Shown: in pieces, positions 3,340-6,703 of the stretch | Numbering within the stretch: position 1 is the first letter of the stretch | Layout of the letters: each line of letters opens with the position of its first letter | Assembly: GCF_037042905.1 (NCBI RefSeq) | Contig: NC_087251.1 | Location: forward strand, 22,446,001 to 22,510,000 | Direction: 5' to 3' | Source of the DNA: Lytechinus pictus | Lineage: Eukaryota | Length of the DNA: 64,000 nucleotides | Made by a program: the position numbers and the translations under genes | The notes under the pieces: model-generated | Databases searched by the model: none | Seen by the model: only the letters and a program-made list of their open reading frames with translations | Told to the model about the DNA's origin: nothing

Positions 3340-3384
3340 GTTCCCATATAGACAAAATAAATCAATATTAATTCATTTCTTTAC

Positions 3385-3415
3385 CTTCAATTTGTTCTTC
3401 TGTTAATTCAGATGC
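3385..3415 (-). CDS. Calmodulin-like gene, coding exon 2 (31 nt, ASELTEEQIE+G)
   Basis: Reverse strand reads attttctctctccttacag|GCA TCT GAA TTA ACA GAA GAA CAA ATT GAA G|gtaaag. Same length and phase as calmodulin exon 2 at 19999-20029 ([10 protein letters not shown]+G), 7/10 residues identical. Confidence 0.88.
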
Positions 3416-4139
3416 CTGTAAGGAGAGAGAAAATAGACAAAAGAATCAGGGGCGGTGCCACACGAGGGGCAGGGGGGGGGGACTGTCTTTATCTCTCTCT
3501 CTCTCTCTCTCTTCTAATTTAGCCGTTGAATGCTGTTTCCAAGATTACTTTCTGAACTGGTGCGCAAATATAAAGTTGGTACCGGATAATGGTCTGCAAA
3601 AATTAACGACCCATACCCTTCTACCCTCGGTATTTCACTTGCATTATTTGCAGTATTTTCTGGGCATCTGATTTATAAATGGCAACCACTTTGTGATGTC
3701 TATAGAATATTATAACTTTACAATGTACAACTGAGCGAAGCTTGAAGTTAACGCCCCTAACCAAGCAATAAACGACTTTAATGACCAGGATTAAAGCCAG
3801 TAGTTTTTTTTAAAGAGAAAAGTAACAATTTGGCCCTTATGGTCAGTATTATGTTTAGGAGTTAATTTCAATTTAAAGAGCTCCTACAAGTGAACCCAAA
3901 CCCCAAAATGTTGATCCTATTTACGCATAATGCTGAATCCAATCTTTGGAGGTAATTTTGGTCAAATTCCTACTTTTTGCCATACCGACCTGATTAACAG
4001 GGGATGCTACATAATAACATACGCAGCACCCCCCCCCCCCCGACACAATTGATCATGGGGGTTTCATCAGCACCCCCACTTCCCAGGGCCTTGGTACTTC
4101 GAGACTTCATTACGATATACTAAGCGTAACATAAAAGTT

Positions 4140-4262
4140 TATTAGTATTATTATTATTTTTATTATTATTATTACTACTACTACTACTACTACTTTTATT
4201 ATTATCATTATTATCATTATTATTATTATCATTATTATTACTATTGTTGTTGTTATCATTAT
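4140..4262. repeat. (TAT/TAC/CAT)n microsatellite
   Basis: Trinucleotide run seen directly. Confidence 0.9.
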
Positions 4263-4838
4263 AAGTACAAGTCTGACATTGAGACTATAATGGTAAGGCT
4301 TGTTGACAGGTGGTCGGTTTTGACAAAAGTACATCCCACTAGCTCTTTGTTAGCTCACTATCAAAGTTGGCTGATGATGTCACTACAGGAATGAGATCTG
4401 GAGATCGTTTTTACGGGGTGGAGCTTAGAAATTGAAAAAATCAAAAGTTATTTTAAAAAATCTATGAAATATATTTTCATGCTTAAAAGCAACATTTACA
4501 TAATATGAGTCGTATTCAGTTCCACTGTGAATAAATTAGAATAATGGTGTTTTTTTTTTTTACAAGGGCTCTTAAAGTACAAGTGAAACAACAAAGCATG
4601 TATAGGTCTTGCGTGCTCTTGAGGCCCGAATCAACATTACTCCGTCACGTAAAAGAACACAATACTAAAAGATCAACGATGTTATGTTTAAAACCATTTA
4701 ACAAACTAATTGAATAACAAAAGAAAATTGGTTTAGTACTTGTTTCAGATTATAATGGGTTTGAAAATGTTGCAAATTGTCGTAAATTTAGACCCACCTA
4801 TAGGTGCAATGTACTTTTGAGCAAATGTGACCAAGGTA

Positions 4839-5001
4839 TACCTCGGTCACATTTGCTCTACGGCGGCCGTAAGGCGAGTCGAAAACAGCCGTTTTATTCA
4901 TTTTTATTCAAACCACCTATATACGGCTATATACAAAGAATGTTAAAACGGCTGTATTCGACTCGCAGTACGGCCGCCGTAGATCAAATGTGACCGAGGT
5001 A
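4839..5001. mobile_element. MITE with TIR TACCTCGGTCACATTTG(C/A)TCTACGGCGGCCGT
   Basis: Long inverted termini. A right-end remnant abuts it at 4819-4838 and a degenerate second copy lies at 5166-5325. Confidence 0.85.
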
Positions 5002-5002
5002 T

Positions 5003-5165
5003 TAGTCTGCTTTGCAAACCCTTCACTCGAGTAAAGGGTCTGAATTGCAGCCTACTCATGCCTTGTGTACTGAAGGCCCTCTCCAGCAAGTTTTGTATGT
5101 GCTAGTCTTTGCGTGGAGACACACTTGTTGATCAAAGTTCAATCAGGGGCTGTGCCTGCAGACTA
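5003..5165. mobile_element. Small element with TAGTCTGC...GCAGACTA termini (TAG..CTA ends as in Academ-type elements, tentative)
   Basis: 8-bp perfect terminal inverted repeat, wedged between two copies of the 4839 MITE. Confidence 0.55.
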
Positions 5166-5756
5166 GTCACATCTACGGCGGCCGTACGGCTAGTCGAAAA
5201 CAGCCGTTTTATTTATTTTCATTCAAAGTATATTACGTACCTGGTACCAAAAAAAGAGAGTTAAAATGGCTGTTTTCGACTCGCCGTACGGCTGCCGTAG
5301 AGCTAATGATTGCGACCTATAGGTATCATGAATCCTATCATCACATTCTTCCATGAAGAAAGGGTGTATTACAGATAAGCAGTCAAAATTGACGTCATTT
5401 CGGTGTTGAAGTGAAAGACAATCTAAACTATTCCCCCATTTATTAGAGAGAAAAAAAATCGATTAAGTTGAACTTCAAAGACAAATATGTATTAAATGAG
5501 TGAGCATGCAATTTAAAATGATAAGGTATGTATGCCGAGAGCTTCATATCAACTAAATAACCTCGAAAGCAACATTAAATTTGTAGGAAATGCTTCTTTG
5601 TAGGAAATGCTAAATGCATTAGTTTACAGATATTTTTAAATGTAAAATGCCCCGCAGAGACACACAAATAGACCACGTTCCTCGAATTAAAAAAATATAT
5701 AACTTTAATTAACGTCTTTCCTTGAGTAAACAGTTTTAATAACGACTTCAACTTAC

Positions 5757-5759
5757 CAT
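5757..5759 (-). CDS. Calmodulin-like gene, coding exon 1 (initiator ATG only)
   Basis: Reverse strand ...ttcagaaaATG|gtaagt: ATG directly followed by a consensus donor, the hallmark first intron of calmodulin-family genes. Splices in phase to 3415-3385. Confidence 0.72.
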
Positions 5760-6703
5760 TTTCTGAAATTATAAATTGAAGACAACAGACAGATTCTTTC
5801 TGAGACTTTATGCCTATCTCTGGTTGACTTGTTTGTAAGGAATGTGGAAGGTGCGGTGCTGGCAAATAGTTTATTGAAAGGAGAGTGGGTCAATCTGTAA
5901 CGAAATTCAAAGAGCAAACGTAAGGTTATTCTGTTTTCTTAGCGTACCTTGAAATATCTCGCCTTAGGTAGATTACATTTGAAATATTTCGACTTTATAA
6001 TATTATACTATTATACTTTTTATGGATATCATCAAGTCGCAATATTTGCTAATGTAAAATTTGACGTTGGTGTTGTGTCACTTTAGCACAGTATATATCG
6101 ACGTATATAAGTGCCATCGGTGGATGAGCTATATGCATTAATGTGATTTTGATAATGTTTTGCAAACTCAGATTAGGTGTCGATGTAAAGCAAACTAAAT
6201 TGTGCTTCCATCATCAGCACCAACATCGACATTGAAAATGTCAATTTTTATATCTTCTTAATTATACTTTAAAAAAAATCTAGCAGGGCCCAGTCCTCGA
6301 TAATTCTAAAAGAATTACTAGCTATTAATACGACGAAGAGCTAGATTTTAAAAGAAAGTATATCTGTGATTATTTTTTCTTTATAAGTTTATCTTCAAGT
6401 TAAGGCCTTAATTCACTGTAGTTTTACATTTTTCAGCACATCAGCATGGACACATCAGTCGTAGATTTACTACCAAGGGTTATTACCTGAACATTTTCGA
6501 TGGTGATTAATAATTAATCTAACCATTAGAAGAAAAAAAAATCTCTGAGAAGTACAGGGTTATATATCTCTCTCATATTAATTATTAAAGTTTAATAAAT
6601 TGTCATGAAAACATTTTGGGACCACAGATTGACGATTCATAGTCGCCCATAAAGTAGTGCGCGTCTCTTACAAAACATAATATTATGAAACAACCCAATT
6701 GTT

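What the first reader, a model, noticed from the sequence alone, without database searches (positions are those of the whole stretch)
3340..5900. Hidden calmodulin-like gene head on the minus strand: promoter, exon 1 and exon 2 duplicated without the rest of the gene
Seen: ATG|gtaagt at 5759-5757 and a 31-nt exon at 3415-3385 with strong splice sites give MASELTEEQIE-, the same exon architecture as calmodulin but a different sequence. The duplication junction lies 45 bp past the exon-2 donor, and I found no EF-hand exon 3 in 1-3339 (a copy of upstream DNA). Inference: the parent gene lies left of the window (its ATG ~945 bp before position 1), so the locus has two promoter/exon1/exon2 modules feeding one set of downstream exons. 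Splicing the distal exon 2 to exon 3 would give normal protein from a second promoter; including both 31-nt exons would frameshift. This could be an alternative promoter or dosage variant caught at birth.
Basis: partly seen in the sequence, partly recalled or inferred. Interest (0 to 1): 0.75.

Follow-up and report, generated by a model that had tools for sequence, protein, structure and literature searches.

The report
Duplicated gene head becomes upstream ORF
A sea urchin calcium-binding gene carries a likely recent 6.7-kb tandem copy of only its front end, and RNA data show exon 2 spliced onto the start-codon exon, so both copies likely sit in one message where the first start codon would become a short upstream reading frame predicted to lower protein output.

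Summary
A 6.7-kb head-to-tail duplication (99.36% identical, 2-bp microhomology) copies the ATG exon and 31-nt exon 2 of an intact 152-aa, four-EF-hand, LpS1-related gene whose exons 3-6 lie left of the window. In 4 of 4 runs laid (two studies), exon 2 is spliced onto an acceptor 138 nt upstream of the next ATG-exon donor, at contig depths of the same order as the normal exon 2-3 join; no exon 2-exon 2 join was listed. The collinear reading is one mRNA, ATG-ex2-ATG-ex2-ex3..6. The distal start then opens a 12-codon uORF ending 130 nt before an intact ORF, and one proximal-copy base adds an overlapping 38-codon uORF. Letters specific to each copy appear in RNA, which argues against an assembly artefact. 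Not shown: DNA reads over the junction, linear versus circular RNA, any translation effect. A new variant of partial gene duplication; moderately interesting.

The parts
3338..10031 (.). Distal copy of the 6.7-kb tandem duplication (keeps the ancestral upstream DNA beyond 10031)
1..3339 (.). In-window half of the proximal copy (its upstream DNA). The copy runs on left of the window to -3363 (0 = G000:C7:22446000). Outside the window, on the minus strand: proximal ATG exon -809..-946 (138 nt, used as an internal exon; main ATG at -944; extra upstream ATG made by the letter at -838), proximal exon 2 -3286..-3316, then single-copy exon 3 -5033..-5167, exon 4 -7733..-7862, exon 5 -8831..-8946, exon 6 coding -10155..-10198
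3338..3339 (.). Duplication junction, 2-bp microhomology (TG on +), no longer homology between breakpoints
   Evidence: not bridged by any contig
6017..6115 (-). Minor upstream exon 0 (at least 99 nt, donor aaa|gtataa); RNA carries the distal letter; holds the start of a 6-codon uORF
   Evidence: X12; X13 joint, depth 3.8
5757..5894 (-). Distal ATG exon, 138 nt from the AG acceptor at 5894 to ATG|gtaagt; its ATG would open the 12-codon uORF
3385..3415 (-). Distal exon 2 (31 nt), identical to proximal exon 2; an exon-2 donor is joined in RNA to the ATG-exon acceptor

Best explanation
A 6.7-kb tandem duplication copied the front end of an intact LpS1-related EF-hand gene, RNA joins exon 2 to the ATG exon, and the likely product is one linear mRNA with two heads in which the first start codon would act as a 12-codon upstream ORF, leaving the intact 152-aa protein to be made by inferred reinitiation at the second start. 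Steps. (1) Shown: head-to-tail duplication with 2-bp microhomology; inferred: non-homologous or replication-based origin, recent. (2) Shown: the ATG exon has a working acceptor 138 nt above its donor, also used by a minor upstream exon; inferred: this acceptor predates the duplication, since both copies have it. (3) Shown: exon 2 donor joined to that acceptor; inferred: this is distal exon 2 capturing the proximal ATG exon during read-through from the distal promoter. (4) Computed: first ATG reads 12 codons to a stop 130 nt before the second ATG; a weak-context ATG found only in the proximal copy lies 24 nt after that stop and overlaps the main start out of frame. (5) Inferred, untested: both ATGs have the same strong context (A at -3, G at +4), so leaky scanning should be poor and protein output per mRNA should fall to the reinitiation rate; the mRNA appears to escape heavy decay because the join is abundant.
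For: Joint 191->4385 on L011 (4193 nt skipped, GT..AG) in 4 of 4 runs from two studies, contig depth 468.5, 64.5, 252.4, 18.2, against exon 2-3 contigs of 580.1, 64, 283.7, 37.1. The 199-nt contig is exon 2 + ATG exon + exon 2 in X8 and X11 (197 nt in X16). In X16 the exon-2 node (460) is deeper than either neighbour (252, 284), as expected if exon 2 is passed twice. The exons joined out of order are exactly the two coding exons that the genome duplicates. Letters of both copies occur in RNA: distal C at 5786 in X10, both letters at 5865 in X12 (24.4 of 34.4 proximal), two forms at the same site in X13 (23.4 and 8.4), and exon 0 matching the distal copy in X12 and differing from the proximal by one letter in X13. 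No N in the window or the 80 kb to its left; 2 matches only in G000. ORF layout.
Against: No contig bridges the DNA junction at 3338 and no DNA run of this organism with a large share was listed. Short contigs cannot tell a linear double head from a 169-nt back-spliced circle, and library type is not on record. X8, X11 and X16 show only proximal letters in the ATG exon (could be collapsed bubbles). Contig depth is flat and is no measure of expression. The acceptor ranks only 11 of 79 candidates in my crude score. The uORF stop lies 133 nt before the next junction, which by the recalled 50-55 nt rule could trigger decay. No translation data at all. The runs may come from animals related to the assembled one.
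Confidence: 0.65

Rival explanations
1. The duplication and the two-headed mRNA are real, but that mRNA is unproductive (no reinitiation, or decay). The duplication is a weakening allele, and protein comes only from the proximal promoter or from skipped forms.
For: Strong context of the first ATG, a 12-codon uORF with downstream junctions, and an extra overlapping uORF in the proximal copy. Out-of-frame exon duplications in ATP7A cause disease and leave only skipped wild-type RNA (PMC3240829, passages).
Against: The join is abundant in 4 of 4 runs, which argues against strong decay. The ORF is intact and 91% identical to the L. variegatus protein. A 130-nt spacer should permit reinitiation (recalled).
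Confidence: 0.15
2. One reading: two promoters feed exons 3-6 mainly as normal one-headed mRNA (distal exon 2 skipping to exon 3), raising dosage; the two-headed form is a side product.
For: Both copies have intact splice sites and upstream DNA; distal letters are seen in RNA. Skipping across duplicated exons gives wild-type RNA in ATP7A.
Against: The exon 2-ATG exon join is about half of the exon 2-3 contig depth in the run where it stands on its own contig (X13: 18.2 against 37.1), and the contig that carries it is near parity in the other three (rough).
Confidence: 0.1
3. The tandem copy is an assembly artefact (two alleles placed in a row) and the out-of-order join is a 169-nt circular RNA from a single-copy gene.
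For: Most scrambled joins in human cells are circles, often with exon 2 as acceptor (PMC3270023, passages). Copies differ by only 0.33%; 13 of 22 substitutions are transversions. The junction is unbridged.
Against: It needs two independent accidents covering the same two exons. The join is of the same order as the linear join in 4 of 4 runs. Exon 0 goes with distal letters in two runs. The junction is gap-free with 2-bp microhomology and no breakpoint homology.
Confidence: 0.08

Closest known systems
LpS1-alpha/beta of Lytechinus pictus (Spec-type EF-hand proteins; P09485)
   Same: P0001 groups with both LpS1 halves apart from calmodulins (100/100, 14 rows); 42% identical to the N half; NCBI's automatic name is LPS1-alpha-like.
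   Different: 152 aa with four EF-hand loops against 317-321 aa; true LPS1-alpha lies on contig C2. No Strongylocentrotus Spec protein was in the tree.
Calmodulin
   Same: Six-exon plan with a lone ATG codon and a 31-nt exon 2 (3/31/135/130/116 against 3/31/144/127/116 in the calmodulin gene at 18647 on the + strand).
   Different: Only 42% identical; a separate, divergently transcribed neighbour.
Intragenic head-to-tail exon duplications such as those in human ATP7A (PMC3240829, passages read)
   Same: Tandem, head-to-tail, both copies spliced into one RNA, a last-exon to first-exon border as the diagnostic join.
   Different: Those break the frame inside the ORF. Here the unit includes upstream DNA and the start codon, so a whole ORF survives behind a uORF.
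Hybrid first/internal exons (bioRxiv 10.1101/2021.05.27.446076, abstract read)
   Same: The ATG exon has an acceptor and is used as an internal exon.
   Different: Its use as a first exon is not shown here (no CAGE); the main internal use is likely driven by a duplicated copy of the gene's own exon 2.
ATF4 leader (PMC13587735, passages read)
   Same: A short non-overlapping uORF followed by a uORF overlapping the main start.
   Different: ATF4's first uORFs are 6 and 12 nt long; here the first is 39 nt, the second has a weak context and lies only 24 nt on, and no stress response is shown.
Scrambled exons from circular RNA (PMC3270023, passages read)
   Same: Same junction sequence would result.
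   Different: Here a genomic duplication explains the join collinearly, the paper's rarer linear class.

Membership tests
LpS1 | About 320 aa, internally doubled (eight EF-hands; count recalled) | tested here: not met
   152 aa, four loops against 317 and 321 aa
LpS1 | Being the LPS1-alpha locus | tested here: not met
   LPS1-alpha (P0038) is on the 70,580,802-base contig = C2; this gene is on C7
LpS1/Spec-type clade | Groups with LpS1 rather than calmodulin | tested here: met
   100/100 branch in a 14-row tree; the other side held the window calmodulin and 8 calmodulin-like rows picked from the hits; no Spec1/2 available
LpS1/Spec-type clade | Aboral-ectoderm expression (recalled) | not testable with these tools
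   Run tissues are not given; paper searches found nothing on LpS1
Calmodulin | Near-identity to canonical calmodulin | tested here: not met
   42%
Calmodulin | ATG-only first coding exon, 31-nt exon 2, six exons | tested here: met
Partial tandem gene duplication | Head-to-tail copy of part of a gene with one new junction | tested here: met
Partial tandem gene duplication | Junction confirmed in independent DNA reads | tested here: inconclusive
   Only RNA-type contigs of this organism were laid; none covers 3338
Hybrid first/internal exon | Used as an internal exon | tested here: met
   Joins from exon 2 (4 of 4 runs) and from exon 0 (1 of 4) onto the acceptor
Hybrid first/internal exon | Also used as a first exon | not testable with these tools
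   Contigs cannot show starts
Circular RNA | RNase R resistant, not polyadenylated | not testable with these tools
   Library type not on record
ATF4-type leader | Short uORF then overlapping out-of-frame uORF | tested here: met
   12 codons, then 38 codons overlapping the main ORF by 11 nt
ATF4-type leader | Main ORF translation rises under eIF2-alpha stress | not testable with these tools
   Needs reporters or ribosome profiling

The most novel reading that the evidence does not exclude
One duplication plus one point change built a two-uORF reinitiation switch out of the gene's own start exon, the two-headed mRNA is now the gene's main form across L. pictus, and it spread because it retunes or gates output of this calcium-binding protein: a translational control element caught at birth.
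Probability: 0.1. Interest if true: 0.8.

Novelty: new variant of a known kind. Interest (0 to 1): 0.5.

Why it matters
It shows a concrete route by which a uORF with a strong start context can arise in one step, from a copy of the gene's own start exon. It also tests a common assumption (recalled, from variant interpretation) that a duplication including the promoter and first exons is harmless because one whole copy remains: here read-through appears to rewrite the leader of that whole copy. The species is a laboratory embryo model (recalled), so the effect on translation is directly testable. The gene itself is an obscure lineage-specific EF-hand gene, which limits the reach.

Tried and rejected
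No RNA holder on record was listed and no run held more than 0.11 of the words. None of the 17 organism-A rows (14 with contigs, 3 raw RNA runs) was laid, nor was X15, so the state in that other organism and the ancestral letter at -838/5865 stay open. No contig covers the junction or most intronic DNA: no evidence either way. Exon 2-exon 2 frameshift form (13 aa): not listed in any of 4 runs; rare forms could be dropped. Unequal crossover between repeats: rejected, breakpoint neighbourhoods align no better than random pairs (score 18; 77% of 300 random pairs reach it). Extra copies or haplotigs: 2 matches only. Species-level heterozygosity for dating: searches gave listings only, no figure, so age is relative (0.33% per site, 95% range 0.21-0.50%). 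Precedent searches: searches gave 0 papers; one search gave 10, none on this layout by title and abstract start (three opened as passages: PMC3240829, PMC13587735, PMC12758896, the last adding only general uORF background). LpS1 searches gave 0, search 34 one unrelated paper. Most subscription papers, including the older Spec/LpS1 literature, and all supplements were unseen. Earlier findings of this scan: none returned. No structure prediction was run; it would not bear on the question.

Full report
Coordinates. Window positions; zero and below lie left of the window (0 = G000:C7:22446000). The gene is on the minus strand.

Observation. The ATG|gtaagt at 5759-5757 and the 31-nt exon at 3415-3385 are as described. 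Window 1-3339 repeats 6704-10031. With 80 kb of left flank the whole unit is -3363..3339 against 3338..10031: 99.36% identical, 22 mismatches, 10 gap openings, no N. The same two letters stand at the left end, junction and right end, and the breakpoint neighbourhoods are no more alike than random pairs, so a non-homologous origin is inferred. G000 holds 2 matches to the exon-2 region.

The gene. The second ATG is at -944, exon 2 at -3286, and exons 3-6 at -5033, -7733, -8831 and -10155, all GT-AG. They give 152 aa, equal to NCBI's P0001, named LPS1-alpha-like of Lytechinus pictus, on a contig of C7's length. The L. variegatus counterpart is 91% identical. Exons 3-5 matched once each in G000 (57 candidates scored). 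It is neither calmodulin (42%; the real one is at 18647 on the + strand) nor LpS1-alpha (317-321 aa, on C2), but groups with the LpS1 halves at 100/100 in a 14-row tree.

RNA. Of 24 runs listed, 7 are organism B; I laid 6 of them. Their RNA status is the tool's guess or not given, but they show GT-AG joins and match the exons with 0-2 other letters. One search showed the ATG exon-exon 2 join in 4 of 4 runs, and in 3 of 4 the contig ran to 5894 and went on with about 30 letters that did not fit. 5894 is an AG acceptor whose proximal twin one search had flagged. laid X8, X11, X16 and X13 on a stretch holding distal exon 2, the junction and the proximal ATG exon. All 4 show exon 2's donor joined to that acceptor (-809), skipping 4193 nt, at depths 468.5, 64.5, 252.4 and 18.2, beside exon 2-3 contigs at 580.1, 64, 283.7 and 37.1. 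In X8, X11 and X16 the figure covers the ATG exon as well, so only X13's is likely the join alone. Only one other join was listed: a minor upstream exon 0 onto the same acceptor (X13, 3.8). No exon 2-exon 2 join appeared. Depths are flat contig means and support only 'not a trace product'.

Is the duplication real? The copies differ at 5786/-917, 5865/-838 and 6102/-601 within exons. X8, X11 and X16 show proximal letters only. X10 shows the distal letter at 5786 with the proximal at 5865. X12 shows both at 5865 (24.4 of 34.4 proximal). X13 has two forms there (23.4 matching proximal, 8.4 with one other letter, not printed). Exon 0 matches the distal copy in X12 and differs from the proximal by one letter in X13. 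These could be population alleles, but with the out-of-order join falling on exactly the duplicated exons, a real duplication with read-through is the simplest account. Against: no contig bridges the DNA junction, and a 169-nt circle would give the same join; circles are the usual source of scrambled joins in human data (PMC3270023, passages). My estimate for the linear two-headed mRNA is about 0.85-0.9.

Consequence. In ATG exon(d)-exon 2(d)-ATG exon(p)-exon 2(p)-exons 3-6 the first ATG reads 12 codons to a stop, and the intact ORF starts 130 nt later. A third ATG, present only with the proximal letter at -838, sits 24 nt after that stop in a weak context and runs 38 codons, overlapping the main start out of frame. 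Exon 0 adds a 6-codon uORF. Both head ATGs share a strong context, so I infer that the first is used and the protein depends on reinitiation; that short uORFs with spacers over about 80 nt allow this is recalled, not tested. The layout resembles ATF4's (PMC13587735, passages), but regulation is only a possibility. Which letter at -838/5865 is ancestral is unknown.

Known or new. Tandem exon duplications spliced in series are well known (PMC3240829, passages), as are exons used both first and internally (10.1101/2021.05.27.446076, abstract). Searches found no report of a duplicated start exon turning into a uORF of its own gene, and 19, 24 and 34 none on this locus; that library lacks most subscription papers. 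NCBI lists two accessions for P0001, so its transcript models may already contain this leader.

Verdict. Real feature, first reading partly right, a different mechanism indicated by RNA. New variant of a known kind; interest 0.5.

Noticed in passing
window 18647 to about 24220, + strand: A canonical 149-aa calmodulin gene, transcribed away from the LpS1-related gene, about 12.9 kb from its ATG to the distal ATG. May hint that the LpS1-type lineage arose beside calmodulin.
   Followed up: partly
window about -42100 to -48960, - strand (L007): A third, divergent EF-hand gene (three exons seen) downstream of the gene studied.
   Followed up: no
window donor at about 5241 (proximal about -1463), intron 1: An inverted-repeat element in intron 1 supplies an alternative exon spliced to exon 2 in X16 (depth 10.2).
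   Followed up: partly
P0004 versus G000: L. variegatus has a 56%-identical paralog with the next accession number (likely the neighbouring gene); its best match in G000 is this gene itself (94 candidates scored), so it may be lost here. Its first 50 residues match a dispersed repeat.
   Followed up: partly
exon 4, window about -7850: The third EF-hand loop has Lys where L. variegatus has Asn at loop position 5, a usual calcium ligand (role recalled).
   Followed up: no
L012-L013 and L020-L021 (C2:24.73-24.83 Mb): Two LpS1-type genes about 80 kb apart, each with two EF-hand halves; one is LPS1-alpha.
   Followed up: partly
window 16108-16923 and 16954-17892: Two further small tandem duplications (408-bp and 471-bp spacing), the first with inverted ends, between the duplicated head and calmodulin.
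   Followed up: no
window 52500-54000 and 61650-62290: A 12/18-nt repeat array of 1.5 kb, and a 42-nt repeat array arranged as a large inverted repeat.
   Followed up: no
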